Source of the DNA: Candidatus Uhrbacteria bacterium RIFCSPLOWO2_01_FULL_47_17
Lineage (GTDB): Bacteria; Patescibacteriota; Patescibacteriia; UBA9934; GWF2-40-263
DNA length: 64,000 nt
NCBI GenBank assembly: GCA_001791305.1
Contig: MGEI01000003.1
Coordinates: forward strand, 112,872 to 176,871
Direction: 5' to 3'
The notes beneath the pieces are model-generated. The model made no database searches, was not told the origin of the DNA, and worked only from the letters and a program-made list of their open reading frames with translations. The position numbers were made by a program, and so were the translations under genes. Within the stretch, counting starts at the first letter, position 1; each line of letters opens with the position of its first letter. Positions 11,843-36,391 of this stretch are shown in pieces.

Positions 11843-13576
11843 ATGAACGTTCGTTTCACATCGATTTTGTTCAGACTCGCATGCGTTTTTCTTTGCGCGT
11901 GTTCGGACGACACCATTTCAGAAGTTCCGAGCCTTGATTTGTCCGGAGACGGAAGGGCGATCGACACCTCACCTGCTCCCGAGACCCAATCGGACACAGA
12001 TACGATCGAGGACGTGCAGCCAGATGTTGTCGACGCAAGCGTGGATGCGACGCCGGACGTGTTTGTTTGCAAAGACAATGCGTCTTGCGACACGAAAAAT
12101 CCTTGCACACAAGATTGGTGCAACGTGGGAACGGGCGAATGTCAGCATACGCCGCAGCCGGACAATATCTGTACAGACGGTGACGCCTGCACGGTGAATG
12201 ACATCTGCACCGCGTCCGGTCAGTGCTTTGGCGCAAAGCAGGTTGTGTGCAATGACAACAGTCCTTGTACGAAAGATTCCTGCGACAAGCTCTCTGGCTG
12301 CACGTTCGAACCGATCGATGCGTCTTGTACGGACAATGATGTTTGCACGAAGAACGATGCGTGCGTAGTCGGCGTCTGTGTCGGAACGAAGATCGCATGC
12401 AACGACGGCCTCGACTGCACCGAAGACTCTTGCGACAAGAATACAGGTTGCTCGACCGTGAAGCTGAACAATCTTCCGTGCGACGATGGCTCAGCGTGTA
12501 CAGTGAATGACTTGTGCGACAAGGGCGCGTGCAAAGGATCGAACATCAATTGTTCAGATACAAATCCTTGCACCCAAGATGCGTGCGACAAAGTGTCCGG
12601 ATGTTTTTCGACTCCCGCATCCGCTGGATCGAAGTGCACAGACGGAAACGCCTGTACGATCAACGATAACTGCCAGGATGCAAAATGCGTCTCCGGTTCA
12701 CAAAAAAACTGTGACGACAACAGTGTCTGCACGTCTGATTCTTGTGACGCTGCAAACGGTGCGTGTCTGAATCTACCGGTTGTTGGAGTGTTCTACTGCA
12801 ACGACAACAACGCCTGTACGACAAACGATTCGTGTACGCTCGGCGTGTGCACTGGAAAGATTTTGCAGTGCAACGATGGACTCGCTTGTACGCAAGATAC
12901 GTGCGGGGCGAATATCGGTTGCATGTACCTTGTTCAAGACAAATCGCCGTGCAATGACGGAGACGCGTGCACGATTGGCGACACCTGTTTCACAAACAAG
13001 TGTGAAGGTAAGGTGAAGACGTGCGAGGACAACAACGACTGCACAATCGATACGTGTGATTCCGCGGTTGGAAGCTGCAACTTCACGGCGAACGACGGCT
13101 ACTACTGCTCAGACGCAAATGCCTGCACAACGGGCGATGTCTGCAAAGGCACCAAGTGTAGCGGCGTTACCATCATCTGCAACGATGGCAACCTGTGTAC
13201 TTCCGACAGTTGCAACCAAAAACTCGGTTGCGTCTTTACCGGAACGCCAAACGCGCCTTGCGAAGACGGTGACCTCTGCACCACGGACGACATTTGCCAG
13301 CAAACCGTTTGCAAAGCAAAGCCGATTGTGTGCAATGACCAGAATACGTGCACAAAGGACAGTTGCAGCAAAGCAACCGGAAAATGTGTTTTTCAAACCT
13401 TGAACGACACAAACAAGTGCGACGACGATGACCTCTGCACGATCGCGGACATCTGTCTTGCGGGTCAGTGCAAAGGCTCTGTGAACGCTTGTGACGACAG
13501 TGATCCCTGCACCGTGGACGCATGCAATCCAAAAGATGGAAAATGCGATCACACAAAGAAACCCAACTGCCCATAG
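11843..13576 (+). CDS. Cysteine-rich lipoprotein with about 20 tandem Dictyostelium-type CTDC repeats (C-x-D-x-N-x-C-T-x-D-x-C-D-x-x-x-G-C)
   Basis: 577 aa. Lipoprotein signal peptide (FRLACVFLCAC) and SD GAGGAGG. The roughly 24 aa Cys-rich repeat recurs through the whole protein. Own promoter (TTGACG-17-TAAAAA) and terminator. Confidence 0.7.
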   Translation: MNVRFTSILFRLACVFLCACSDDTISEVPSLDLSGDGRAIDTSPAPETQSDTDTIEDVQPDVVDASVDATPDVFVCKDNASCDTKNPCTQDWCNVGTGECQHTPQPDNICTDGDACTVNDICTASGQCFGAKQVVCNDNSPCTKDSCDKLSGCTFEPIDASCTDNDVCTKNDACVVGVCVGTKIACNDGLDCTEDSCDKNTGCSTVKLNNLPCDDGSACTVNDLCDKGACKGSNINCSDTNPCTQDACDKVSGCFSTPASAGSKCTDGNACTINDNCQDAKCVSGSQKNCDDNSVCTSDSCDAANGACLNLPVVGVFYCNDNNACTTNDSCTLGVCTGKILQCNDGLACTQDTCGANIGCMYLVQDKSPCNDGDACTIGDTCFTNKCEGKVKTCEDNNDCTIDTCDSAVGSCNFTANDGYYCSDANACTTGDVCKGTKCSGVTIICNDGNLCTSDSCNQKLGCVFTGTPNAPCEDGDLCTTDDICQQTVCKAKPIVCNDQNTCTKDSCSKATGKCVFQTLNDTNKCDDDDLCTIADICLAGQCKGSVNACDDSDPCTVDACNPKDGKCDHTKKPNCP

Positions 13577-13581
13577 TTCTT

Positions 13582-13613
13582 GATCCTCATCTTGAGGATC
13601 TTTTTTGTTTTTT
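13582..13613 (+). terminator. Rho-independent terminator (GATCCTCA-tct-TGAGGATC-TTTTTTGTTTTTT) after the first CTDC lipoprotein gene
   Basis: 8 bp stem plus a long T-run. Confidence 0.75.
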
Positions 13614-13626
13614 GGTAGATATTTGG

Positions 13627-13655
13627 TTGACAGGCTCGGAAATTCTTGATACAAA
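13627..13655 (+). promoter_or_regulatory. Putative promoter (TTGACA-17-TACAAA) for the second CTDC lipoprotein gene
   Basis: Consensus -35 with 17 nt spacing to the -10, after the terminator of the first gene. Confidence 0.45.
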
Positions 13656-13698
13656 CAGGGGCACGATTTCTTGTGCATTTTACCTATGGAGGATCGTC

Positions 13699-15303
13699 AT
13701 GAGGCTCGTTTTTGCTCTTTTTTTCATCACAGCTTGTTCGGGTGAGTCGGACGTTTCCGTGCAAGGAGGAGCAGATGGACATTCGATCGATGTTTCGACG
13801 GATGCTCATGATGCGCTGATTGCAACCCAAGCGGACACAACGAACGAAACCGATCTGTTCGACGGTTCGGCGCGCGCACCGGATCCTGGTGAGTTTGGAT
13901 ATCCGTGCATCAAAAATGCGGAATGCAATGCTGGCTACTGCATCGAAACGCCAAATGGAAGTGTTTGTTCGAAGACATGTTCGAGTGATTGTCCGAACGG
14001 ATTCAAATGTTCCGGCGTCAGCAATTCAAGCACCGACATTGTGTTCATTTGTCTTTCCATGTTCAATCGTCTGTGTGATCCATGCAAAGAGCATAAGGAC
14101 TGTAACGAGATGAACAAGATCGGCAATCTTTGTCTGCGTGTCGGAAATAGCGGGAGCTTTTGTGGAGCTCAGTGTTTCATCTCAAACGGTGACGCGGATT
14201 GTCCGAACGGCTATACGTGTCAGTTTCTCACAGATGCAAAGACGAAGGTTTCGGGAGAACAGTGTGTGCCGAAAAGTGGAGCAACGTGTTCCTGTTCGAA
14301 ACGAGCGACACAACTCGCCCTTTCGACGGACTGCACGAACAAGAATGTGTTTGGGGTATGCTCGGGATCGCGCGTTTGCAAACCGGAAGGCCTCACAAAC
14401 TGCATCGGACAAATCCCGGAATCTGAGAGCTGTAACAAGCTTGATGATAATTGCGACGGTGAAACAGACAACATCGACGCAAGCGCGATTGGCGCAGGGT
14501 GCAAGCAAAGTAACGAGTTCGGAACGTGTCTTGGTATGTTTACCGGATGCGAAAAAGGCCAACCGCTTTGCAGTGCCGTGAAACCCGAGCCAGAAGTGTG
14601 CAACGGCAAAGACGACAACTGTAATGGGAAAACCGATGACGGCCTTTGCGACGACGGGAACGTCTGCACAACAGATCAGTGCAACACGGACGGTTCGTGT
14701 AAGCACACAAAATTGACCGGACCGCTTTGCGATGACGGCAATGTCTGTACAGCCGTTTCGGAATGTGCCGCCGGAGTTTGCAAAGGCGGAACCACGCTCG
14801 ATTGCGATGACAAGGACGCATGCTCAACCGATTGGTGTGATCCATTCACGGGTTGCAATCACAAGCCCGCTTCCGATGGCGCCTGTCTCGATGATGGGAA
14901 CGCTTGTACGCAAGATGTGTGCGCAAACGGCAAGTGTACGCATCCGAAGGTAAAGGACGGCAACGCCTGTCTCGACGAAGGAAACGTGTGTACAAAAGAT
15001 GTGTGCGATAATGGCGACTGTTCGCATATCGCGAATGCATCGCCATGCAATGACGACAATCAATGCACGCTCAATGACACCTGCAAAGACAAAACCTGCT
15101 CCGTCTCACTTCCAAAAGTCTGCAACGACGGCAACGCGTGTACGATTGATGGATGTGAGCCGGCAAAAGGATGCGTCTTCAAACCAAATCCATTTTCCAA
15201 TGATGGAACCGGTGTTCCGTGTCCTGAAGATGGCAATGCCTGCACAAATGACATCTGCAAAGGCGCCGTGTGCGCGCATGTGCCGATTCCAGGCTGCAAC
15301 TAG
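13699..15303 (+). CDS. Cysteine-rich lipoprotein: EGF/MopE-like Cys-rich N-terminal half plus CTDC-type repeats in the C-terminal half
   Basis: Start at MRLVFALFFITACS (lipobox ITAC) with SD GGAGGA, giving 534 aa. N-terminal half carries CxxxDDNCDGxTD-type putative metal-binding motifs. C-terminal half repeats CxDGNxCTxDxC. Own promoter (TTGACA-17-TACAAA) and terminator. Confidence 0.7.
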   Translation: MRLVFALFFITACSGESDVSVQGGADGHSIDVSTDAHDALIATQADTTNETDLFDGSARAPDPGEFGYPCIKNAECNAGYCIETPNGSVCSKTCSSDCPNGFKCSGVSNSSTDIVFICLSMFNRLCDPCKEHKDCNEMNKIGNLCLRVGNSGSFCGAQCFISNGDADCPNGYTCQFLTDAKTKVSGEQCVPKSGATCSCSKRATQLALSTDCTNKNVFGVCSGSRVCKPEGLTNCIGQIPESESCNKLDDNCDGETDNIDASAIGAGCKQSNEFGTCLGMFTGCEKGQPLCSAVKPEPEVCNGKDDNCNGKTDDGLCDDGNVCTTDQCNTDGSCKHTKLTGPLCDDGNVCTAVSECAAGVCKGGTTLDCDDKDACSTDWCDPFTGCNHKPASDGACLDDGNACTQDVCANGKCTHPKVKDGNACLDEGNVCTKDVCDNGDCSHIANASPCNDDNQCTLNDTCKDKTCSVSLPKVCNDGNACTIDGCEPAKGCVFKPNPFSNDGTGVPCPEDGNACTNDICKGAVCAHVPIPGCN

Positions 15304-20906: not shown

Positions 20907-22979
20907 ATGCAAACTTGGAAAACAAAACGGAAGTCACAGAATGCACAGAAAATTCATAAGCCATGGAAAGCACGTGTTGCTGCCATCATTTTTCTCCTTG
21001 CGACGGTTGTCGTAGGATTTTATGATTTTCCACAGGCTTGGAATCAAACAGCTGGATTTTTAAAAGATAAAGTTCATGTTTCTTTGCCAACACTGAATGA
21101 ACACGCGTATCGTCTTGGACTTGATTTGCAAGGCGGAACACACCTTGTGTATGAAGCCGACATGAAAGAGATTCCAGAAGCTGATCGTGCGGATGCCCTT
21201 GCGGGTGTGCGTGATGTCATTGAACGTCGCGTGAACGCATTCGGAGTTTCGGAACCGCTTGTGCAAACCACCTCAACAGGTGGGGCGTATCGTGTGGTTG
21301 TGGAACTCGCGGGTGTTTTAGATGTCTCAGAAGCGATTCAACAAATTGGTGAAACGCCTGTCCTTGAGTTTAAGGAACAGGGTTCTGAACTTGATACCAA
21401 ACCAACACCAGCGGATGACAAAAAACTCGTAGAGTTACAAAAAGCAGATCGTGCGGCTGCACAAGCCGTGTTGCTTCGTGCACAAAAAGGAGAAAACTTC
21501 GACGAGCTTGTTGAAGAGTTCAGCATTGAATCAACAAAAGCAGAAACAAAAGGAATGATTTTAAAAATGACCGCAGAATCTACGCAGTATCCAGCCATTG
21601 CAAAAGCTGTCACGCAATACAACCCAAAACCTGGAACCGTTTTTTGGAAAACGGTTGAGCAAGGCAGTTCCATGGAGATTTTTAAAGTGACAGAGAAGAC
21701 AACCGCAAATAACATGCGTCTTTCACACATCCTGATTTGTTTTGAAGGAAAACAAGGATGTTCAAAAGAAACAACCGCGATGGAAGCAAATATTCAGATC
21801 TCAAAATTGAAAAAAGAAGCAACCCCACAAAACTTCAGTGATCTTGCAAAAGCAAATTCAACAGATCCAAGCGCGGCAACAAATGGGGGAGATCTTGGCT
21901 TCGCAACCTCAAATAAATACGTTCCAGCATTCGCTCTTGCCGCGGAAACTCTTGAGGTTGGAAAAATTTCCGACGTTGTTGAAACAGATTTTGGATATCA
22001 CTTGATTTATAAGCAAGATCAAACTGCTATTCCAGCTTACAATGTTCAGCACATCACCATGAAGCTTTCCAGCATGACAGATGTTTTGCCTCCTGCTTCT
22101 CCTTGGAAAAACACAGGTCTTTCTGGAAAGCAGTTAAAAAATGCGGTCGTTGAATTTGATCAAAATTCAGGAAACCCACATGTTTCTATTGCCTTTGATA
22201 ATGAAGGGGGAGAATTGTTTGGGAAATTAACAGCAGCAAACATCGGGAAGCCTATTGCCATTTTCTTGGATGGAACAGCCATCTCAACGCCTGTTGTGCA
22301 AGCGGCAATTTATGGTGGAACAGCCGTCATTACAGGTAACTTCGATTTGGATGAAGCAAAAATTCTTGCACAACGTTTGAATGCAGGTGCGCTTCCTGTT
22401 CCTGTCACATTGCTTTCTCAACAGACGATTGGTCCGACCCTTGGAGCATTGTCTTTGCAAAAAAGCATCATTGCGGCTCTCATTGGATTCGCCCTTGTTG
22501 CTGGGTACATGATTGCCTATTACCGCCTTGCAGGATTGTTTTCCGTCATCGCCCTTATTTTGTACGCGTTTTTGAACTTGGTGGTTTATCGCGTTTTTGA
22601 CGTGACCATTACGCTTTCCGGAATCGCTGGATTCATCTTGTCTCTTGGAATGGCTGTGGACGCAAACGTGCTCATTATTGAGCGTATGAAAGAAGAGATC
22701 GCGTCCGGCAGAGATTTACTTTCATCGATTCATGAAGGATTTGCTCGCGCATGGCCGGCCATTCGGGACGGAAACGTTTCCACACTTGTGGTTGCGCTTG
22801 TCCTTTATGTGTTCAGCGCAAGCTTCATCAAAGGATTTGCCCTCATGCTTGGAATCGGTGTGGTCATCAGTTTGTTTACTGCAATTACCGCAACACGTAT
22901 TTACATGATCACCGCATTTCCAAAACAGGCAGTAAAAATGTCTTGGTTGTCCGGTCTCCCTAAATCAAAAAAAGTATGA
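20907..22979 (+). CDS. secD: Protein translocase subunit SecD with an embedded parvulin (PpiC-type) peptidyl-prolyl isomerase domain in the periplasmic P1 region
   Basis: 690 aa. N-terminal TM helix. Parvulin signature LSHILICFEG...GGDLGF...DFGYHLIYK at about residues 270-370. Then canonical SecD P1 base (IAIFLDGTAISTPVVQAAIYGGTAVITGNF) and a C-terminal 6-TM bundle. Confidence 0.8.
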   Translation: MQTWKTKRKSQNAQKIHKPWKARVAAIIFLLATVVVGFYDFPQAWNQTAGFLKDKVHVSLPTLNEHAYRLGLDLQGGTHLVYEADMKEIPEADRADALAGVRDVIERRVNAFGVSEPLVQTTSTGGAYRVVVELAGVLDVSEAIQQIGETPVLEFKEQGSELDTKPTPADDKKLVELQKADRAAAQAVLLRAQKGENFDELVEEFSIESTKAETKGMILKMTAESTQYPAIAKAVTQYNPKPGTVFWKTVEQGSSMEIFKVTEKTTANNMRLSHILICFEGKQGCSKETTAMEANIQISKLKKEATPQNFSDLAKANSTDPSAATNGGDLGFATSNKYVPAFALAAETLEVGKISDVVETDFGYHLIYKQDQTAIPAYNVQHITMKLSSMTDVLPPASPWKNTGLSGKQLKNAVVEFDQNSGNPHVSIAFDNEGGELFGKLTAANIGKPIAIFLDGTAISTPVVQAAIYGGTAVITGNFDLDEAKILAQRLNAGALPVPVTLLSQQTIGPTLGALSLQKSIIAALIGFALVAGYMIAYYRLAGLFSVIALILYAFLNLVVYRVFDVTITLSGIAGFILSLGMAVDANVLIIERMKEEIASGRDLLSSIHEGFARAWPAIRDGNVSTLVVALVLYVFSASFIKGFALMLGIGVVISLFTAITATRIYMITAFPKQAVKMSWLSGLPKSKKV

Positions 22980-23863
22980 AATTAAACATTGTTAAACATC
23001 GCAAAGGCTGGTACATCGTTTCGGCAGTTTTGATGGCTGTGAGTCTTCTTGCCCTCATTGGGTTCGGACTCAAACCTGGAATTGATTTTACGGGCGGAGC
23101 GTTGCTTGAGGTCGCCATTGAATCAAAACCCTCTCACGGACAACTTCAAGAAACTCTTGCAGCATCTGGTCACAAGGAAGCGATTGTCCAAGTTTCAAAC
23201 GACAGCGTTCTTGTTCGAACGGTTCCGCTCACAGAGGAACAACACCAAAATATTCTTGCGTCTTTTGAAAAAGCATTTGGAAAGACCACGGAACTTAAAT
23301 TTGATTCGATTGGCCCCGTGATTGGAAATGAACTGCGTCGCACGGCGTTCCTGGCGATTTTCGCAAGTTTGGTTCTGATCGGTGCGTACATTTCCTGGGC
23401 GTTTCGCGGGGCAGGAGATTTTATTTCCTCAAAAAAAATCGCCTTGCTTACCGTCATTAAAACCGTGCACGATGTTTTTATCTCCGTCGGTGCATACGCC
23501 ATTTTAGGATATTTCTTCGGCTACGAAATGGACACCGCGTTTGTTGCAGCCACACTGACCATTCTCGGATATTCCATCAATGATGGTGTCGTGGTTCTTG
23601 ATCGCACACGCGAAAATCTTAAGAAGAGAATTTCATCTCACTTAAGCGAGGTTGTGGATGTTTCCATTGAACAAACGCTCGCGCGTTCCATCAACACATC
23701 TGTGACGGTGTTTCTCGCCCTCCTTGCCGTCTTCCTTTTTGGAGGAGAAACCACACGACCGTTTGCTATGTTACTTTTGATCGGTGTCGCCGTCGGAACA
23801 TACTCATCCGTGTTCATCGCCTCGCCCGCGCTTGTCACCCTTGAGAAGTGGGGAAAGAAATAA
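22976..23863 (+). CDS. secF: Protein translocase subunit SecF
   Basis: 295 aa. SecF fold (IDFTGGALLEV..., 6 TM helices). Start overlaps the secD stop. Confidence 0.85.
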   Translation: MKLNIVKHRKGWYIVSAVLMAVSLLALIGFGLKPGIDFTGGALLEVAIESKPSHGQLQETLAASGHKEAIVQVSNDSVLVRTVPLTEEQHQNILASFEKAFGKTTELKFDSIGPVIGNELRRTAFLAIFASLVLIGAYISWAFRGAGDFISSKKIALLTVIKTVHDVFISVGAYAILGYFFGYEMDTAFVAATLTILGYSINDGVVVLDRTRENLKKRISSHLSEVVDVSIEQTLARSINTSVTVFLALLAVFLFGGETTRPFAMLLLIGVAVGTYSSVFIASPALVTLEKWGKK

Positions 23864-23867
23864 GATG

Positions 23868-23899
23868 AAAGAGAATCTGAAAAGATTCTCTTTTGTTTT
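23868..23899 (+). terminator. Rho-independent terminator (AGAGAATC-tgaaaa-GATTCTCT-TTTGTTTT) after secF
   Basis: 8 bp stem plus a T-run. Confidence 0.7.
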
Positions 23900-23934: not shown

Positions 23935-25566
23935 ATGTTACCCTTGCTTGCGATTCAGATCATCCAAGAATCCGCGCAATCATCTGCTTCGTTGATTCCA
24001 CTCGATTTCTTCAATCAACCGATTGATGTGATTTTTTTTAATCTGTTGTTGTGGTTTGGATGGATCCCTGTTCTCACAACACTTTTGTGGGGATTTTCAG
24101 AGCTGTGGCTCATGGAACGTCAAGCAGAGTTTGCCGCAAAGCAAAAATATATTTGTCTTGCGGTGGATGTTCCGTCCATGACAGAACAAACACCAAAGGC
24201 GCTCGAAAACTTATTTTCCGTTTTATACGCGGCAAAATCAACCCCAACGTTTAAAGAAAAGTGGTTCGATGGCAAATTCATGCCAACGTTTTCTTTTGAG
24301 ATTGTTTCAGAAGAAGGCTACATGCAATTTATTATCCGCACACAGGCAAAGTTTCGAGATGTGATTGAAGCTGGAATTTACGCGCAGTATCCAGATGCAG
24401 AGTTGAATGAGGTTGATGACTATGTCACAAAAATCCCAAAAATCTTTCCTGATGAGAAATATGACATGTGGGGCGCAGAGTTCACGCTCGACAAGCCCTC
24501 GCATTTTCCCATTCGTACTTACGTTGACTTTGAAGACCAAATGACGGGAGAAATTAAAGATCCGCTCGGTTACACCTTGGAACAGATGTCCAAAATGAAA
24601 CCCGGTGAGCATTTTTGGTTTCAACTTGTCATTCAGCCTACGGGAAATGAGTGGAAAAAAGCAGGAATTACACACGTGAACAAAACATTCGGTGTGGAAG
24701 AAAAAGCGGCAGCGAAAAGCGATATTGCGGCGGCAGCAGGAACCATGTTTAAACTTCCGTTTGAATTGATTGAACACGCAACTGCTGTAGATCTTGCGCC
24801 TATTTTTGGCATGGCCTCTGCAGAAAAAAAAGTAGAAGATCCATGGAAAGCCTTCAAGCTTGGCCCTGCTCAGCAAGATGAAGCAAAAGCGATCATGCGA
24901 AAAACCATTAAGGTTGGACATGCGGTAAAAATTCGTATTGTGTATTGTGCACAGAAACCTGTGTACAAGAAAGGGGATCGCGTGACCATGATTAAAGGTA
25001 TTTTGAATCAGTACTCTCATTTGAATTTGAATTCGTTCAAGATGCATGCCGCATCTGTTCCAAAAGACGATTATTTTTGGCAGAAATGGGATTATGAGAA
25101 AAAACAAGGCACTCTCATGAAGGCGTATCAAGGGCGTAGCTGGGGAATCGGGGCGAACCCCGTTTACTTGAACGCAGAAGAACTTGCAACGCTTTGGCAC
25201 TTTCCAACCATTAGCATTAAAGCGCCGCTCATCAAAAAAGCAGAAGCTCGTCGCGCAGAACCTCCTGTTGGACTTCCTATTACATTTCTCGAAAACACAT
25301 TGCCTGGTGTTGGCGATAATGAATTTCCGCTTCCGGGTGGAATGCCCATGGAACATCATGAGTCCGCGGAGTCGCGTGAGGCAGGAACGTTTGCAAACGT
25401 GAAAGAACCACTCCCAGAAACATTGCCACACCTGAAAGCACCAACAGACCAAGAGCATGAAGATACAGGTGAGGCACTCCTTCCAAAGAGTCGATTTATG
25501 AATGACACATCTCCCGCAGATGCGTCCGACGAAGATTTATTTACTCCACCCGATTTGCCAGTTTGA
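23935..25566 (+). CDS. Hypothetical membrane-anchored protein (two N-terminal TM helices plus a large soluble domain), paired with the downstream coupling-protein-like ATPase
   Basis: 543 aa. TM segments near residues 30-60. No recognisable catalytic motif. Acidic C-terminal tail. Putative promoter and short leader upstream. Confidence 0.5.
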   Translation: MLPLLAIQIIQESAQSSASLIPLDFFNQPIDVIFFNLLLWFGWIPVLTTLLWGFSELWLMERQAEFAAKQKYICLAVDVPSMTEQTPKALENLFSVLYAAKSTPTFKEKWFDGKFMPTFSFEIVSEEGYMQFIIRTQAKFRDVIEAGIYAQYPDAELNEVDDYVTKIPKIFPDEKYDMWGAEFTLDKPSHFPIRTYVDFEDQMTGEIKDPLGYTLEQMSKMKPGEHFWFQLVIQPTGNEWKKAGITHVNKTFGVEEKAAAKSDIAAAAGTMFKLPFELIEHATAVDLAPIFGMASAEKKVEDPWKAFKLGPAQQDEAKAIMRKTIKVGHAVKIRIVYCAQKPVYKKGDRVTMIKGILNQYSHLNLNSFKMHAASVPKDDYFWQKWDYEKKQGTLMKAYQGRSWGIGANPVYLNAEELATLWHFPTISIKAPLIKKAEARRAEPPVGLPITFLENTLPGVGDNEFPLPGGMPMEHHESAESREAGTFANVKEPLPETLPHLKAPTDQEHEDTGEALLPKSRFMNDTSPADASDEDLFTPPDLPV

Positions 25567-25581
25567 TCCTTACTTTCCGCT

Positions 25582-27990
25582 ATGGGCTATAATCACGATC
25601 ATGAAAATGAGGTCAACTATTTTGCGAAAACCAACTTTCGCAATCAGATGACAAAATTTGGTATCAAAACCGACGATCGCCGTCGACATGTGTATGTGAT
25701 TGGAAAAACAGGTATGGGAAAGACGGTTCTTCTTGAGAATCTCACGCTTTCCGATATTTACGCAGGACATGGGTGCTGTTATGTAGATCCACACGGAGAT
25801 ACAGCGGAGAAGTTGATTAACTATATTCCAAGCTGGCGTATTAATGATGTTGTGTATTTTAATCCGGCAGATGCAGAATATCCGGTTGGATTTAATATTC
25901 TTGAAGCCGTTTCCGAGAGACATAAGCACTTGGTGGCAAGTGGAATGATGGGAGTTTTTAAAAAGATTTGGGAAGACCAATGGTCGTCCCGCATGGAATA
26001 CATTTTGAACAACACAATCCTCGCGCTGCTCGACAATCAAGGATCAACATTGCTTGGAATCAACCGCATGTTGTCTGATGCAGAGTATCGTAAGCGCATT
26101 GTTGGAAATGTGACGGATCCGGTTGTGAAAACGTTTTGGTTGAAAGAGTTTGCCTCCTATAATGAAAAATACGCACAAGAAGCCGTGGCTCCGATTCAAA
26201 ACAAAATCGGACAGTTTTTGTCTGCATCCGTGATTCGTAACATTGTTGCGCAGGTAAAATCAAGTATCAACATTCGTGAAATCATGGACTCGGGAAAGAT
26301 TTTTATTGTGAACTTGTCAAAAGGACGTATCGGAGAAGACAGCTCACGTCTGCTTGGTGGACTTCTCATCACGAAATTGCAACTGTCCGCCATGGAACGT
26401 GTGGATCAGGATGAAAAGGAACGTTTGGATTTTTATTTGTATGTGGATGAGTTTCAAAACTTTGCGGTGGATTCGTTTGCGGGCATTTTGTCTGAGGCGC
26501 GTAAATACCGGTTGTGTTTAACCATCGCTCACCAGTATATCGCTCAGTTGACGGACGAGGTTCGCGAAGCGGTGTTTGGAAACGTTGGAACGATTATTTC
26601 GTTCCGTGTTGGTTCTCCGGACGCAAAATACATGGAAACAGAATTTGCTCCCCGTTTTTTGCCGGAGGATATTATTAATCTTCCGAAGTATAACGTGTAT
26701 CTCAAGTTATTGATTAACGGAGTGACAAGTCAACCGTTTTCCGCCATTACCCTTGCGCCTATTTCTCAAAAAACAGATTCGGAAGATCGTATCATTAAAG
26801 TTTCGCGTGAACGTTACGCAAAGGAACGCCACACGATCGAGGAACAGATTATGACCTGGAGCGGCATGGGGAATATGGACGTTGATACGCTTCTTGCAGA
26901 GGCGGAAGAAAAAAAGAAGTCCGATAAAGTTGCGGCAAAGGACGCAAAGAAACCAAAGTTTGAATACAATTGTTCGAGGTGCAACAAAGACATGGTGCTC
27001 CCTGTCGAGCTTGATCGATCACGTCCAATCTATTGTGAGGATTGTATTGAGATTGTGCGTGAGGAGAAAGCGAATAAAGGAGGAAAGGGCGGAAGCAAGC
27101 CAGCAGATACGCGTAATCTTCCGCCAAAGGTTCAACCAAAAGAAGCGCCACCTCGCACAACGAGCATGTCTGTAGGGGTGCCCCTCGTGGGTACTCATGC
27201 AGTTGATGATCACAAGTTACCCGACGAGCCAACCATTTCGCTTTCAACGTTGATGCCGAAGACGGATGTGGTTGTAGGGGTGCCCCTTGTGGGTACCCAT
27301 GCATCGGTTTCAGAAACGGAAAAACCAAAGCCAGTCGCACCTGCGCCTGTTGTTTCAAAACCGCAACCCGTTGTTGCACCCATTCCGCCTGCGCCTCGAC
27401 CGACACCACAAGTGCCGGTTCCCGTTCAGGTTGAGTCAAAACCTATTGTTGTACAAACACCTGTTGCGAACGTTTCGGAATCTCGCATCTCATTTGATGA
27501 ACCCGTACGCGCAGACTCGAATATCAGCCAGTCGAGGCCAGCGCCTGCCGTTCAAACATCGTCGGAACCAAAGCCCCAACCACCAGTTGTCACTCCTCGA
27601 CCATCAACACCACAACCTCCGCGACCGATGGGGAATTTGTCGCGTACTCCTTCGCAGTCATCAAATGAGGGACAGGGCGGAGAAGGCGGAAATGGCGGAG
27701 AGGGGGAGAAGCGTAAACGTAAACGTAAGCGCAAAAAATCCGGTGGGGCTGGATCTGTTACTGTTGAAAATACAGGAAATGTAAATCGAGAACGTGTTGT
27801 CTCACAACTCTCCCAACCTGGACAAACAATCACATTGAAATCATTACAAGAACAAAAACGTCCAGAGTCAAAACCTGTTGTGCCTCAAGCGCGTCCGATC
27901 GAGAATCCTGTCGAAAAGCCGGCAGAGAAACCGGTTTTGAAACCCGTCGCCGGAAAACTACACATTGGCCAAAGCATCAAATTCGAATAA
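25582..27990 (+). CDS. TraD/TraG/VirD4-like coupling-protein-family P-loop ATPase (HerA-FtsK superfamily, cytoplasmic), with a C-terminal zinc ribbon and a Pro/Lys-rich disordered tail
   Basis: 802 aa. Walker A VIGKTGMGKT, Walker B FYLYVDEFQNF, a region resembling the T4CP arginine finger (RKYRLCLTIAHQYIAQL) and a TraG-D_C-like segment (AVFGNVGTIISFRVGS). Then a CxxC...CxxC ribbon (YNCSRCNK...YCEDC), an internal 10-aa duplication (VGVPLVGTHA x2) and a PKP/KRKRKRK low-complexity tail. Confidence 0.65.
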   Translation: MGYNHDHENEVNYFAKTNFRNQMTKFGIKTDDRRRHVYVIGKTGMGKTVLLENLTLSDIYAGHGCCYVDPHGDTAEKLINYIPSWRINDVVYFNPADAEYPVGFNILEAVSERHKHLVASGMMGVFKKIWEDQWSSRMEYILNNTILALLDNQGSTLLGINRMLSDAEYRKRIVGNVTDPVVKTFWLKEFASYNEKYAQEAVAPIQNKIGQFLSASVIRNIVAQVKSSINIREIMDSGKIFIVNLSKGRIGEDSSRLLGGLLITKLQLSAMERVDQDEKERLDFYLYVDEFQNFAVDSFAGILSEARKYRLCLTIAHQYIAQLTDEVREAVFGNVGTIISFRVGSPDAKYMETEFAPRFLPEDIINLPKYNVYLKLLINGVTSQPFSAITLAPISQKTDSEDRIIKVSRERYAKERHTIEEQIMTWSGMGNMDVDTLLAEAEEKKKSDKVAAKDAKKPKFEYNCSRCNKDMVLPVELDRSRPIYCEDCIEIVREEKANKGGKGGSKPADTRNLPPKVQPKEAPPRTTSMSVGVPLVGTHAVDDHKLPDEPTISLSTLMPKTDVVVGVPLVGTHASVSETEKPKPVAPAPVVSKPQPVVAPIPPAPRPTPQVPVPVQVESKPIVVQTPVANVSESRISFDEPVRADSNISQSRPAPAVQTSSEPKPQPPVVTPRPSTPQPPRPMGNLSRTPSQSSNEGQGGEGGNGGEGEKRKRKRKRKKSGGAGSVTVENTGNVNRERVVSQLSQPGQTITLKSLQEQKRPESKPVVPQARPIENPVEKPAEKPVLKPVAGKLHIGQSIKFE

Positions 27991-34556: not shown

Positions 34557-35120
34557 ATGTTCATTCCTCTCGTCATTCAACATCGCCACGTTCATTTGTC
34601 GAAGAAAGACCTTCGGCAATTATTTGGGGATGAAAAATCATTGGAAATTGAATCGGAACTTGAACATAAAGGTCAATACTTATATCGAGAAACGGTGAAT
34701 GTGGAAGGGAAGACAGGGGTTATTGAATCCGTGCGCATACTCGGGCCATCTCGAAGCAGCACACAAGTTGAACTATCGATTACGGACGCGTTTGCGATTG
34801 GTCTCAATGCACCAACGCGACAATCAGGAGATTTATCTCGAGCGGCAACGTGTAAACTCATTGGACCAGCAGGATCTGTTCGTGCGACATCATCTGTCAT
34901 TGTGCCTGCGCGTCATTTGCATTGTTCCGATCGCGTCGCCAAAAAACTTCGCCTGAAAAATCACCATGTGGTAACATTACGACATGCAGAAAAGTCGGAT
35001 GTCGTCTTATCACACGTCTTTGTACGCGTTCATCCAACCTTCGCTCTCGAACTCCACCTAACATCCGATGAAGCCGCTCATCACTGGCTTCATTCCGGTG
35101 ATCTTTTTGAACTATGTTAA
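34557..35120 (+). CDS. PduL-like phosphate acyltransferase (propanoyl/acetyl-phosphate transferase family)
   Basis: Start at MFIPLVIQHRHVHLS, giving 187 aa. Two PduL repeats with the characteristic RHVHL / RHLHCS histidine motifs. Confidence 0.6.
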   Translation: MFIPLVIQHRHVHLSKKDLRQLFGDEKSLEIESELEHKGQYLYRETVNVEGKTGVIESVRILGPSRSSTQVELSITDAFAIGLNAPTRQSGDLSRAATCKLIGPAGSVRATSSVIVPARHLHCSDRVAKKLRLKNHHVVTLRHAEKSDVVLSHVFVRVHPTFALELHLTSDEAAHHWLHSGDLFELC

Positions 35121-36391
35121 AACGTTTTGGGTTTTTCGCCCTTTCCGCCTTTTTCGCCCTTTCCGCCCCTGCCCTCGCTCATGCTGCGACGGCTGATTTG
35201 CGCGTTGTCCCTGCGGATATTCGTTTTTCAAAGTCAACACTGATTGTGGGGGACTCGATTCGTATTTATACAAAAGTACAAAACGTTGGAACCATTGACG
35301 TCACAGGATACGTGACCTTTTATCAAGGAAGTTCGGTAATTGAAGAACCGCAAGTCATTTCCGTTGTCGCGGGAAGTGATCCAGAAGAGGTTTTTGTGGA
35401 TTTTATCGTTCCAGAAGGCCAGTTTAATATACGAACAGTCATAAGTGGAACAAAACCAGCGGATGCAAATTTGGACAACAATGTAGCAATTACAGGAATG
35501 TTTACACCTATTCCAGATAAAGATCGTGACGGAAAGCAGGATGCTTCTGACAATTGTCCAACGGTGGCAAACGCAGATCAAGCAAATTTGGATGGTGATA
35601 CGTTTGGTGATGCATGTGATGATGACATTGATGGAGATGGACTCACAAATGCGGTTGAGGCCGAACTTGGAACGAACACGAAGGCAAAGGATACGGATGG
35701 TGATGCGGTGAATGATCCACAAGATGCCTATCCGCTTGATCCAAAACGAACCGTGATCGAAAAACCTGTACCCGTGAAAGTAGTTCCAAAACCTGCGCCA
35801 GAACAAAAAACAACAACGCAACAAACAGCTCAGGCAGAATCTCTTGCGACCACAAACAATACGGCAGCGCCTGATGCTCCGTTATCTTCTACAACAAATA
35901 CTTCCAGTTCAGTGTCTGTCTTAACCGTCGCCGTCGACGATCTCTCTGAACAGAGTGAATCTTCAAACAAGAATGTTTCTCCAAACGCCATTTTTACGTA
36001 TGAAAAAATATCTTGGAATACGTTTGTTTTTCGATTGATTGCCCCTGTTCAAGAGCGTTTCGTTTATGATTGGAATTTTGGGGATGGTGTTCGTTCAAGT
36101 AAAACAGAAGTGACTCACACATACGCAAAGCCTGGTTCTTATACGGTCACGCTCAAGACAACAGATGAAAGGGGAGTCATTTCAGAGGAATCTGCACAAG
36201 TCCACATTGCATTTTTTACCTTTTCAAACCCACTCGTTTGGCTTATTGTTTCATTGCTTGGCATGGCGCTCGTTGCCGCCTTTGTGGTTTGGTTAAAGAC
36301 GAAAACAAAAAAGAACATTAAAAAGAAAGTTAAAATAACAGAATCAGCAGAAGATACAGAATTAAAAAAAATTCATGTTAAAGAAGAGTAG
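35114..36391 (+). CDS. Cell-surface protein: signal peptide, CARDB-like domain, thrombospondin type-3 Ca-binding repeats, PKD domain and a C-terminal TM anchor
   Basis: 425 aa. Signal peptide ending ALAHA. DxDxDGxxD repeats (DKDRDGKQDASDNC, DLDGDTFGDACDDDIDGDG). PKD motif (WNFGDG...HTY). Hydrophobic C-terminal anchor plus KKNIKKK. Confidence 0.6.
   Translation: MLKRFGFFALSAFFALSAPALAHAATADLRVVPADIRFSKSTLIVGDSIRIYTKVQNVGTIDVTGYVTFYQGSSVIEEPQVISVVAGSDPEEVFVDFIVPEGQFNIRTVISGTKPADANLDNNVAITGMFTPIPDKDRDGKQDASDNCPTVANADQANLDGDTFGDACDDDIDGDGLTNAVEAELGTNTKAKDTDGDAVNDPQDAYPLDPKRTVIEKPVPVKVVPKPAPEQKTTTQQTAQAESLATTNNTAAPDAPLSSTTNTSSSVSVLTVAVDDLSEQSESSNKNVSPNAIFTYEKISWNTFVFRLIAPVQERFVYDWNFGDGVRSSKTEVTHTYAKPGSYTVTLKTTDERGVISEESAQVHIAFFTFSNPLVWLIVSLLGMALVAAFVVWLKTKTKKNIKKKVKITESAEDTELKKIHVKEE

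What the first reader, a model, noticed from the sequence alone, without database searches (positions are those of the whole stretch)
23935..27990. Membrane protein plus a cytoplasmic TraD/TraG/VirD4-like ATPase with a zinc ribbon and a Pro/Lys-rich tail, directly downstream of secDF
The 802-aa protein has the Walker A (GKTGMGKT), Walker B (LYVDEFQNF) and arginine-finger-like region (RKYRLCLTIAHQYIAQL) of the HerA-FtsK / type IV coupling-protein clade. It also has a TraG-D_C-like segment, but it has no N-terminal TM helices. The upstream 543-aa protein supplies two N-terminal TM helices and a large domain of unknown function. Together the two genes could be a split coupling-protein-like translocation module. 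The ATPase carries a CxxC-x(n)-CxxC zinc ribbon (YNCSRCNK...YCEDC). It also carries an exact 10-aa duplication (VGVPLVGTHA) encoded by a 30 nt repeat with 2 mismatches, and a roughly 250-aa proline-rich, lysine-rich disordered tail (KRKRKRKRKK). No other conjugation or type IV secretion genes, relaxase or integrase are in the window. The pair therefore looks chromosomal and stand-alone. It could be a DNA or protein translocation or uptake device, or a novel envelope system.
Basis: partly seen in the sequence, partly recalled or inferred. Interest (0 to 1): 0.6.

Follow-up and report, generated by a model that had tools for sequence, protein, structure and literature searches.

The report
Split membrane-tethered coupling-protein-like ATPase
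Two adjacent genes in this Candidatus Uhrbacteria (CPR/Patescibacteria) genome encode the two halves of one machine, a membrane anchor of unknown function (DUF8128) and a conjugation-type motor ATPase; other organisms make them as one fused protein, the motor is more conserved than the neighbouring protein-secretion genes, and its job is still unknown.

Summary
ORFs 23935-25566 (543 aa) and 25582-27990 (802 aa) exist and carry the stated motifs.

- **ATPase.** It belongs to the VirD4/TrwB coupling-protein (T4CP) clade, not the VirB4 clade, and has no TM helix.
- **Upstream protein.** It is a DUF8128 (PF26449) protein with one N-terminal TM helix (not two), a cytoplasmic alpha/beta domain, and an acidic tail.
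- **One unit.** The ATPase follows DUF8128 in 86 of 88 informative loci. The two are fused in one polypeptide in a bacterium (P0395), in haloarchaeal elements, and in Bacillus phage G gp156. One phage family (phrog_5156) covers both proteins.
- **Fold.** The DUF8128 model resembles the VirB4 N-terminal domain. This rests on structure only; no sequence method confirms it.
- **Conservation.** The ATPase core is more conserved than SecD, SecF and MnmA in every comparable locus. All neighbours are housekeeping genes, with no T4SS, relaxase or integrase gene.

A 2025 survey already reported orphan T4CPs in 96% of Patescibacteria genomes. Their obligate DUF8128 partner does not appear in the searchable literature.

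Best reading: a split, membrane-tethered hexameric motor, probably acting on DNA. The function is inferred, not shown. I rate it a new variant of a known kind, of moderate interest.

The parts
23935..25566 (+). DUF8128 (PF26449) membrane-anchor protein, 543 aa
   Evidence: ORF. It is 100% identical to P0001, 'hypothetical protein A3C09_02060 [Candidatus Uhrbacteria bacterium RIFCSPHIGHO2_02_FULL_47_44]', which carries precomputed PF26449; the name DUF8128 comes. The family holds 2,640 clusters at 50% identity.
24022..24105 (+). Single TM helix (about residues 30-57); predicted topology N-out, C-in
   Evidence: It is the only Kyte-Doolittle window above 1.6. The AF2 model has a helix at 30-69. 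67 of 74 family members have an N-terminal hydrophobic segment. The topology is inferred from charge distribution and from the fused soluble homologues.
24148..25224 (+). Cytoplasmic DUF8128 alpha/beta domain (residues 72-430)
   Evidence: AF2 pLDDT is about 80-90 here. Foldseek against PDB: the top 9 hits are all TrwK/VirB4 of R388 (best E 1.2e-4, probability 1.0). Foldseek against BFVD: phage G gp156, E 1.8e-15. hhalign matches to the fused proteins are 96-99%.
25177..25206 (+). Conserved junction motif EELATLWHFP (residues 415-424)
   Evidence: E416, H422, F423 and P424 are invariant in 74 diverse members. In the fused proteins the same motif lies just ahead of the ATPase: ELAALAHLP in the Halorubrum protein and ELATIFHFP in P0395.
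25282..25563 (+). Acidic disordered tail (residues 450-543) ending in the conserved PPDLPV motif (25546-25563)
   Evidence: pLDDT is below 50. The median net charge of orthologous tails is -9, and the terminal PP(N/D)LP(V/I) motif is conserved across loci.
25582..27990 (+). Soluble T4CP (VirD4/TrwB)-clade ATPase, 802 aa
   Evidence: NCBI names its orthologues 'type IV secretion system DNA-binding domain-containing protein'.
25660..26622 (+). T4CP nucleotide-binding core with a helical insert (residues 27-347): Walker A at 25702-25725, Walker B at 26437-26463
   Evidence: Pfam TrwB_AAD_bind matches residues 27-342 and TraG-D_C matches 285-347. Walker residues are invariant in the family. The AF2 model has helices at 112-236 between Walker A and B (low-confidence model).
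26971..27045 (+). CxxC-x17-CxxC zinc ribbon (C464, C467, C485, C488)
   Evidence: Sub-threshold hits to zf_Tbcl_2 and TIGR04272. Three of the four Cys are invariant and C485 is at least 90% conserved. Many orthologues carry PF23477.
27067..27987 (+). Pro/Lys-rich basic disordered tail (residues 496-802). It includes the 30-nt repeat pair (27172-27201 and 27274-27303), the poly-basic tract (27709-27738) and the conserved terminal motif GKLHIGQSIKFE (27952-27987)
   Evidence: The median net charge of orthologous tails is +9. The duplication is not conserved in relatives.
23868..23893 (.). Palindromic hairpin with a T-rich run between secF and the DUF8128 gene, followed by a TATACT -10-like box about 10 nt before the ATG
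   Evidence: This is a consensus match only. It suggests the pair may be its own bicistronic unit. The gap between the two genes is 15 nt.
20907..23863 (+). secD (with an inserted PpiC-type rotamase domain) and secF: frequent but not universal upstream neighbours
   Evidence: secF lies directly upstream in 52 of 79 loci that have room to tell.

Best explanation
The two genes encode the two halves of one ATP-driven machine from a distinct subfamily of coupling-protein-like (VirD4/TrwB-clade) ATPases. In this subfamily the motor carries a DUF8128 N-terminal domain in place of the usual two-helix membrane domain.

**Shown**
- In Patescibacteria the gene is split exactly at the domain junction.
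- The DUF8128 half carries an N-terminal hydrophobic segment, which I read as an N-out/C-in TM helix and hence a membrane anchor. The fused forms lack it.
- The motor half is soluble. It keeps intact Walker A and B motifs and has gained a zinc ribbon and a long basic tail.

**Inferred**
- The DUF8128 domain, whose fold resembles the VirB4 N-terminal domain, docks the motor on the cytoplasmic face of the membrane. The motor is probably a hexamer.
- The acidic tail of the anchor, the basic tail of the motor and two conserved terminal motifs help hold the separated halves together.
- The motor translocates or remodels nucleic acid, most likely DNA, at the membrane as a housekeeping function (uptake, transfer or handling of DNA) rather than in plasmid conjugation.
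- One TM helix per subunit cannot form a DNA pore. Any transport across the membrane would therefore need a separate channel, such as ComEC or VirB6.
For: **Family**
- Pfam T4CP models score above cut-off.
- hhalign to TrwB: 94.6%, E 6.5e-8.
- Foldseek top hits are DotL, TrwB and Cag-beta.

**One unit**
- The ATPase is directly downstream in 86 of 88 informative loci. No third partner gene is conserved.
- The gap between the two genes is 15 nt.

**Fusions**
- P0395: DUF8128 at 143-483 (98.8%) and ATPase at 498-902 (100%, E 2.8e-73).
- Halorubrum WP_012660318: residues 53-340 (96.3%) and 656-1107 (99.4%).
- Phage G gp156: residues 15-322 (97.8%) and 376-788 (99.9%).
- Precomputed Pfam shows PF26449 and PF10412 in single proteins.
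- phrog_5156 covers both window proteins.

**Anchor**
- One TM helix in the window protein, and 67 of 74 split partners have an N-terminal hydrophobic segment. None of 33 ATPases and none of the haloarchaeal or P0395 fusions has one.

**Fold**
- The top 9 PDB hits are VirB4/TrwK, with no P-loop ATPase in the top 50 listed.

**Tails**
- Opposite net charges (-9 and +9, each of the expected sign in 89% of 57 pairs) and conserved terminal motifs.

**Housekeeping role**
- The ATPase core is more conserved than SecD and SecF (48 of 48 loci) and MnmA (31 of 31).
- All neighbours are housekeeping genes.
- T4CP homologues occur in 2,918 of 3,035 Patescibacteria genomes, against 2,417 for VirB4. Only 148 of 5,713 lie near virB4 (PMC12102498).

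**Analogy**
- CedD (TM segment, VirB4-NTD-like domain, HerA-type ATPase) is required for DNA import in Saccharolobus (bioRxiv 10.1101/2024.09.27.615246).
Against: - No experiment bears on this protein pair, and the substrate is unknown.
- The VirB4-NTD resemblance rests on one Foldseek search of one AF2 model (mean pLDDT 69.6; TM-score 0.33, rmsd 9 A) against what is in effect one solved protein.
- Sequence methods do not confirm that resemblance. hhalign probability is below 1% against TrwK, TrsD and TrsE. No Pfam family recurs among 74 members. There is no PDB sequence hit.
- The ATPase model is poor (pLDDT 58.6).
- The fused homologues are soluble, so membrane translocation is not an ancestral property of the subfamily.
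- The one T4CP homologue tested by Tn-seq, in S. epibionticum, was not essential. Whether it is an orthologue of this pair is unknown.
- Physical interaction between the two proteins, and any role for the tails, is inferred only.
Confidence: 0.6

Rival explanations
1. It is the ordinary coupling protein of the Patescibacteria VirB4-type T4SS, encoded away from the rest of the system. It recruits substrates (effectors or DNA) and hands them to the T4SS channel, with the DUF8128 protein replacing the usual TM domain.
For: - It is a member of the T4CP family and has a TraG-D_C segment.
- T4CP genes often lie far from virB4, and 80% of Patescibacteria encode VirB4.
- In phage G the fused homologue gp156 sits next to a VirB4-like ATPase, gp155 (TraG P-loop and AAA_10 domains).
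Against: - T4CP homologues are present in more genomes (96%) than VirB4 (80%).
- In S. epibionticum the T4SS is essential but the T4CP is not.
- No T4SS gene lies within 64 kb here or in the conserved neighbourhood of 94 loci.
- Sequence conservation exceeds that of SecDF, which is unusual for a conjugation-type coupling protein.
- Fused homologues occur in haloarchaeal elements, where no T4SS gene was called next to them in the Halohasta loci and none is listed in the incomplete Halorubrum plasmid table.
Confidence: 0.22
2. It is an FtsK/SpoIIIE-like chromosome-segregation or division-site DNA pump, tethered to the membrane by the DUF8128 protein.
For: - T4CPs are related to FtsK (PMC12857230).
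- The genomic context is housekeeping and cell-envelope genes: murB, murC, murJ and secA-secD-secF here, and uppP downstream in 17 loci.
- Conservation is very high.
- The protein has a long Pro-rich linker-like tail.
Against: - No FtsK_SpoIIIE Pfam hit appeared among the matches.
- The helical insert between Walker A and B is typical of T4CPs.
- At least one Patescibacteria genome (TM7x) has a separately annotated ftsK.
- Fused soluble homologues occur in phages and haloarchaeal elements.
Confidence: 0.1
3. It works with SecDF in protein export or membrane-protein handling, as suggested by the conserved secD-secF-DUF8128-ATPase gene order.
For: - secF lies directly upstream on the same strand in 52 of 79 loci.
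Against: - The linkage is lost in the more distant relatives, where a sigma-like HTH gene sits upstream in 24 loci.
- A hairpin and a -10-like box separate secF from the pair.
- No member of this ATPase family is known to act in Sec export.
- The fused homologues have no Sec context.
Confidence: 0.05
4. It is part of an anti-phage defence system (MADS-like or HerA-like).
For: - The PADLOC model mad8 matches the ATPase at 58.7 bits (E 1.6e-16), with weak HerA hits as well.
Against: - The MADS profiles were built from HHpred alignments to PDB homologues, so mad8 is a generic P-loop profile.
- None of the other seven MADS genes is nearby.
- The pair is near-universal, syntenic and highly conserved among housekeeping genes, which is the opposite of a defence island.
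Confidence: 0.03

Closest known systems
VirD4/TrwB/TraD type IV coupling proteins (T4CP)
   Same: - Same ATPase clade: Walker A and B motifs, a helical insert and a TraG-D_C segment.
- Pfam PF10412, PF02534 and PF12696 score above cut-off.
- hhalign to TrwB is 94.6%.
- The best fold hits are DotL, TrwB and Cag-beta.
   Different: - No N-terminal TM domain in the ATPase.
- The N-terminal domain is DUF8128, encoded by a separate gene.
- No relaxase or mating-pair genes nearby.
- Extra zinc ribbon and a 300-aa basic tail.
- Housekeeping-level conservation and near-universal presence in a whole phylum.
DUF8128-T4CP fusion proteins: phage G gp156 / phrog_5156, Halorubrum WP_012660318, Halohasta P0389, bacterial P0395
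   Same: - Both domains, in the same order, with the same EELAxLxHxP junction motif.
- ATPase hhalign E-values run from 1.9e-21 to 2.8e-73.
   Different: - One polypeptide rather than two.
- No N-terminal TM helix, no zinc ribbon and no charged tails.
- The haloarchaeal ones sit in mobile-element-like contexts with an integrase and Orc1/Cdc6.
- None has a known function.
VirB4 (TrwK of R388)
   Same: - Same two-part layout: a non-ATPase N-terminal alpha/beta domain that mediates membrane docking, followed by an FtsK/HerA-superfamily ATPase.
- The DUF8128 model's best solved-structure matches are VirB4 chains.
   Different: - The ATPase is not of the VirB4 clade (hhalign 3.9%; TIGR00929 E 0.064).
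- No sequence similarity between the N-domains.
- No VirB3 or VirB8 partners nearby.
CedD/CedB of the crenarchaeal Ced DNA-import system
   Same: - Same layout: a TM segment, an N-domain structurally like part of the VirB4 NTD, and an FtsK/HerA-superfamily ATPase.
- Chromosomal, not on a plasmid.
- Shown to be needed for DNA import.
   Different: - The CedD ATPase is of the HerA/VirB4 type.
- The NCBIfam CedD model scores only 23.4 bits against a cut-off of 600, and only around Walker A.
- The DUF8128 protein has no hit to the CedD model.
- CedD is a single polypeptide.
TrsD of pGO1/pSK41 (stand-alone VirB4-NTD-like protein, abundant in Patescibacteria T4SS loci)
   Same: - A separately encoded protein said to be remotely related to the VirB4 N-terminal part, next to an ATPase gene.
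   Different: - hhalign of the DUF8128 family against pSK41 TrsD gives 0.6% probability.
- TrsD is 227 aa and pairs with VirB4, not with a T4CP.

Membership tests
Type IV coupling protein (VirD4/TrwB family) | Nucleotide-binding domain matching the family profiles (PF10412 / PF02534), with Walker A and B motifs | tested here: met
   TrwB_AAD_bind scores 37.8 bits (cut-off 20.5) and T4SS-DNA_transf 25.1 (cut-off 20.1). Motifs are. hhalign to TrwB is 94.6%.
Type IV coupling protein (VirD4/TrwB family) | All-alpha domain inserted between Walker A and Walker B | tested here: inconclusive
   The Pfam match spans profile positions 8-309 of 387. The AF2 model has helices at 112-236, but that model is low-confidence (pLDDT 58.6).
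Type IV coupling protein (VirD4/TrwB family) | N-terminal transmembrane domain in the same polypeptide | tested here: not met
   The ATPase has no hydrophobic window, and none of 33 family members has one. One TM helix is supplied by the separate DUF8128 protein.
Type IV coupling protein (VirD4/TrwB family) | Genetic linkage to a relaxase or to mating-pair-formation genes | tested here: not met
   None among the ORFs scanned in the 64-kb window, and none in the conserved neighbourhood of 94 loci. The literature reports 148 of 5,713 near virB4.
Type IV coupling protein (VirD4/TrwB family) | Hexameric ATPase that binds DNA or substrate and docks on a T4SS | not testable with these tools
   Needs biochemistry or multimer modelling.
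DUF8128 (PF26449) | Match to the Pfam model | tested here: met
   The identical protein P0001 and all 120 listed homologues carry precomputed PF26449.1. The name is given. The local Pfam copy predates the model, so one search shows nothing.
VirB4 (the pair read as a split VirB4) | N-terminal domain with the VirB4-NTD fold | tested here: inconclusive
VirB4 (the pair read as a split VirB4) | C-terminal ATPase of the VirB4 clade | tested here: not met
   hhalign to TrwK is 3.9%, on Walker A only. TIGR00929 gives E 0.064. There is no CagE_TrbE_VirB hit.
CedD (NCBIfam NF053655) | Score above the equivalog cut-off | tested here: not met
   23.4 bits against a cut-off of 600, covering residues 21-96 only.
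FtsK/SpoIIIE | FtsK_SpoIIIE motor domain and gamma domain | tested here: not met
   No such Pfam or NCBIfam hit at E <= 0.1.
MADS defence system (mad8) | Eight-gene operon including a methyltransferase, a specificity subunit and a kinase | tested here: not met
   Only the generic mad8 profile matches. The neighbours are secDF, a hydrolase and mnmA. How the profile was built is described.

The most novel reading that the evidence does not exclude
DUF8128-linked ATPases form a third, unrecognised branch of the VirB4/VirD4 radiation, one that keeps a VirB4-type N-domain on a VirD4-type motor. That would bear on how coupling proteins arose. In Patescibacteria, on this reading, the branch has become a near-universal core housekeeping machine that works independently of the T4SS. 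It is more conserved than SecDF. One possible role is as the membrane motor for DNA import or handling in organisms that cannot make their own nucleotides.
Probability: 0.2. Interest if true: 0.8.

Novelty: new variant of a known kind. Interest (0 to 1): 0.55.

Why it matters
Patescibacteria make up a large share of bacterial diversity, and most of their conserved genes have no known function.

A 2025 survey found VirD4-like ATPases in 96% of their genomes. Almost none lie near a T4SS, and the authors could only say the ATPases 'may be exapted for other functions'.

This analysis gives at least one clade of those orphan ATPases an obligate partner. It shows that the pair is one machine, split at a domain boundary. 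It links the pair to fused relatives in phages and haloarchaea. It also shows that the motor is under stronger constraint than SecDF.

Together this turns a vague annotation into a defined two-protein target. The target can be tested in the few cultivable Patescibacteria, or by expressing the proteins in another host.

Tried and rejected
- **Sequence link from DUF8128 to VirB4-NTD or TrsD.** hhalign against TrwK, pSK41 TrsD and TrsE all gave probability below 1%. A Pfam scan of 74 members at E <= 10 found no recurring family. A PDB sequence-profile search found nothing. The link therefore remains fold-only.
- **Split VirB4.** Rejected, because the ATPase is of the T4CP clade.
- **ATPase structure.** The shallow alignment gave a poor model (pLDDT 58.6). 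I used it only for ranking fold hits.
- **Third conserved partner gene.** Neighbourhood clustering of 94 loci found none.
- **Defence system.** The PADLOC mad8 hit is explained by how that profile was built.
- **The two 'unpaired' loci.** L080 has only about 900 nt of contig left after the gene, too little to show whether the ATPase follows, although the 900-nt cut-off counted it as informative. L090 has no ATPase within 8 kb.
- **Viral contigs.** One weak partial hit only.
- **Literature.** No paper mentions DUF8128 or PF26449.
- **The 10-aa duplication.** Real, but not conserved, so of no functional weight.

Full report
**1. What is in the sequence**

The window comes from Candidatus Uhrbacteria bacterium RIFCSPHIGHO2_02_FULL_47_44 (CPR/Patescibacteria). 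The 543-aa product is 100% identical to its protein A3C09_02060.

ORFs 23935-25566 (543 aa) and 25582-27990 (802 aa) lie on the + strand, 15 nt apart, directly after secD (20907-22979) and secF (22976-23863). That includes the 10-aa duplication, encoded by two 30-nt copies that differ at 2 positions.

Two corrections are needed:
- The upstream protein has one convincing TM helix (about residues 30-57), not two.
- The duplication is absent from close relatives, so it carries no functional weight.

The 30 larger flanking ORFs that I scanned are all housekeeping genes, including DnaB, SHMT, FolD, MurC, MurB, MurJ, AlaRS, PriA, ClpB, GluRS, RpoA, S4 and Alr; SecA, MnmA and Era were recognised by eye. 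There is no VirB4, relaxase or integrase.

**2. The ATPase**

The ATPase exceeds Pfam's curated cut-offs for TrwB_AAD_bind, T4SS-DNA_transf and TraG-D_C. NCBI annotates its orthologues as 'type IV secretion system DNA-binding domain-containing protein'.

| Comparison with the ATPase family profile | hhalign result |
|---|---|
| TrwB (canonical T4CP) | 94.6%, E 6.5e-8, 270 columns |
| TrwK/VirB4 | 3.9%, Walker A only |

The AF2 model is poor (pLDDT 58.6). Even so, its best solved-structure matches are DotL, TrwB and Cag-beta, which rank ahead of the VirB4 C-terminal domain and HerA.

The motor therefore belongs to the T4CP clade. It lacks the clade's usual N-terminal TM domain: neither this protein nor any of 33 relatives has a hydrophobic window. 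After the core come a CxxC-x17-CxxC zinc ribbon (three Cys invariant, C485 at least 90% conserved) and a 307-aa Pro/Lys-rich tail.

**3. The upstream protein**

The local Pfam and NCBIfam copies give no hit. Its homologues, however, carry the newer Pfam model PF26449, named DUF8128. The family is large, with 2,640 clusters at 50% identity at E <= 0.001. All named members are Patescibacteria.

An AF2 model (pLDDT about 80-90 over residues 30-430) shows three parts:
- one long helix (30-69);
- an alpha/beta domain (72-420);
- a disordered acidic tail.

Charge distribution and the fused soluble homologues both indicate an N-out, C-in topology. The large domain would then face the cytoplasm. This is an inference.

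**4. The two genes are one unit**

- The ATPase gene follows the DUF8128 gene directly in 14 of 14 reference-genome loci and in 86 of 88 informative loci overall.
- Of the two exceptions, L080 has only about 900 nt of contig left after the gene, too little to tell, and L090 is a real exception.
- No third gene is conserved beside them.
- secF lies upstream in 52 of 79 loci but is replaced by a sigma-like HTH gene in more distant lineages. The secDF linkage is therefore shared ancestry and not a requirement.

Fused proteins carry both halves in one chain:

| Protein | DUF8128 part | ATPase part |
|---|---|---|
| Bacterial P0395 (906 aa) | 143-483 (98.8%) | 498-902 (100%, E 2.8e-73) |
| Halorubrum pHLAC01 protein (1,276 aa) | 53-340 (96.3%) | 656-1107 (99.4%) |
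| Bacillus phage G gp156 (825 aa) | 15-322 (97.8%) | 376-788 (99.9%) |

Three further lines of evidence agree:
- Precomputed Pfam annotation shows PF26449 and PF10412 together in single proteins.
- The phage family phrog_5156 matches the window's DUF8128 protein on profile positions 24-196 and the window's ATPase on positions 405-806.
- A fold search of the DUF8128 model against viral structures returns gp156 first, at E 1.8e-15.

The motif EELATLWHFP (residues 415-424) lies just ahead of the ATPase in the fusions. The Patescibacteria genes are therefore split at a domain junction.

**5. What the split added**

The haloarchaeal and P0395 fusions have no N-terminal TM helix, no zinc ribbon and no charged tails. 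Of the split DUF8128 proteins, 67 of 74 have an N-terminal hydrophobic segment.

Across 57 pairs the anchor's tail is acidic (median net charge -9) and the motor's tail is basic (median +9). Each has the expected sign in 89% of pairs. Both proteins also end in conserved short motifs: PP(N/D)LP(V/I) on the anchor, and G.(L/V)..G(Q/E).I.F(D/E) on the motor.

I infer that these features help to hold the separated halves together and place the motor at the membrane. This has not been tested.

**6. Fold of DUF8128**

The nine best matches among solved structures are all TrwK/VirB4 chains of R388 (E 1.2e-4 to 1.1e-3, probability 1.0). ESX EccE-like chains follow. No P-loop ATPase appears in the top 50 listed, which suggests that the match is to the VirB4 N-terminal domain.

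If it holds, DUF8128 plus the motor reproduces the two-part layout of VirB4 and of the archaeal DNA-import ATPase CedD (TM segment, VirB4-NTD-like domain, ATPase), but with a VirD4-type motor.

**7. Constraint and distribution**

Median identity to the window proteins in the 48 loci that hold all four genes:

| Protein | Median identity |
|---|---|
| ATPase core | 79% |
| SecD | 55% |
| SecF | 50% |
| DUF8128 | 48.5% |

The ATPase is the most conserved of the four in all 48 loci. It also beats MnmA in 31 of 31 loci (median 60%).

Quinonero-Coronel et al. (PMC12102498) found VirD4-type homologues in 2,918 of 3,035 Patescibacteria genomes, against 2,417 for VirB4. Only 148 of 5,713 lay near virB4. 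The one copy tested by Tn-seq was not essential, although the T4SS was. The authors suggest exaptation.

No paper mentions DUF8128. [quoted passage not shown]

**8. Mechanism**

Best-supported reading (confidence about 0.6 overall): this is a split, membrane-tethered member of a DUF8128-T4CP-like ATPase subfamily.
- **Shown:** the family, the pairing, the fusions, the single hydrophobic N-terminal segment that I read as the TM anchor, the intact catalytic motifs and the strong constraint.
- **Inferred:** hexamer formation, docking through DUF8128, a tethering role for the tails, a nucleic-acid substrate, and a housekeeping DNA-handling role at the membrane.

One TM helix per subunit cannot form a DNA pore, so any transport across the membrane would need a separate channel.

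Rival explanations:

| Rival | Confidence |
|---|---|
| Ordinary coupling protein for a distant T4SS | 0.22 |
| FtsK-like segregation pump | 0.10 |
| Sec-linked export role | 0.05 |
| Defence system | 0.03 |

The defence reading rests on the PADLOC mad8 hit, which comes from a generic profile built from PDB homologues.

**9. Verdict**

The orphan ATPase itself was already known, and DUF8128 is already a catalogued domain. The new elements are:
- the obligate pairing of the two genes, and their fusion in other organisms;
- the VirB4-NTD-like fold of the partner;
- the features added by the split;
- housekeeping-level conservation.

I rate it a new variant of a known kind, with interest 0.55.

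Noticed in passing
window 20907-22979 (+): SecD carries a PpiC/parvulin-type rotamase domain (residues 258-372) between its N-terminal P1 segment (residues 101-158) and the P1 head subdomain (402-498). That is a foldase domain built into the Sec accessory subunit.
   Followed up: no
window 11843-13576 and 13522-15303 (+): Two adjacent large proteins (577 and 593 aa) with Dicty_CTDC Cys-rich repeats, an unusual repeat family for a bacterium. They are probably surface proteins.
   Followed up: no
window 35114-36391 (+): A 425-aa protein with PKD and thrombospondin type 3 repeats, next to murJ. It is a likely cell-surface or adhesion protein.
   Followed up: no
window 25282-25563 and 27067-27987; loci L001-L094: The disordered tails of the two proteins carry opposite charges (median -9 and +9). 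Both proteins also end in conserved short motifs: PP(N/D)LP(V/I) and G.L..GQ.I.F(D/E). The fused homologue P0395 has none of these features.
   Followed up: partly
L014 13414-14907; L037 11607-13019; L040 11595-13010; L044 11524-12942; L045 5646-7067: In one sub-lineage a second, shorter ATPase paralogue (about 470-497 aa, no zinc ribbon, ending EI(I/V)V) follows the first in tandem. In those loci the first ATPase ends in (L/V/I)FPW instead of the usual terminal motif.
   Followed up: partly
L098 3342-4991 and 5007-7484 (Bacillus phage G gp155, gp156): Phage G encodes a VirB4-like ATPase (TraG P-loop, AAA_10 and DUF87 domains) directly upstream of the fused DUF8128-T4CP-like gp156. This resembles a VirB4/VirD4 ATPase pair in a jumbo phage with no annotated T4SS channel. 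Related large proteins occur in Bacillus phages JL and Slash.
   Followed up: partly
L100/L101 (Halohasta) and L097 (Halorubrum pHLAC01): The haloarchaeal fused DUF8128-T4CP proteins are very large (1,276-2,133 aa). The Halohasta copies sit beside an integrase, Orc1/Cdc6 and MazE, and the Halorubrum copy sits among IS elements. These are probably integrated or plasmid elements. No other T4SS gene was called next to them in the Halohasta loci; the Halorubrum plasmid gene table is incomplete.
   Followed up: no
L002, L004, L009, L013 (titled 'uncultured Gammaproteobacteria') and L010 (titled 'Candidatus Kapaibacterium'): These reference-genome records hold the Patescibacteria-type DUF8128-ATPase locus at 63-84% (DUF8128) and up to 96% (ATPase) identity; L002, L004, L009 and L010 also show secDF upstream (L013 starts inside the DUF8128 gene). 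The organism labels on these MAGs are probably wrong.
   Followed up: no
window 23868-23893: A perfect 11-bp-stem palindrome with a T-rich run lies between secF and the DUF8128 gene, followed by a TATACT box about 10 nt before the ATG. It may be a terminator plus a promoter for a short-leader or leaderless transcript.
   Followed up: no
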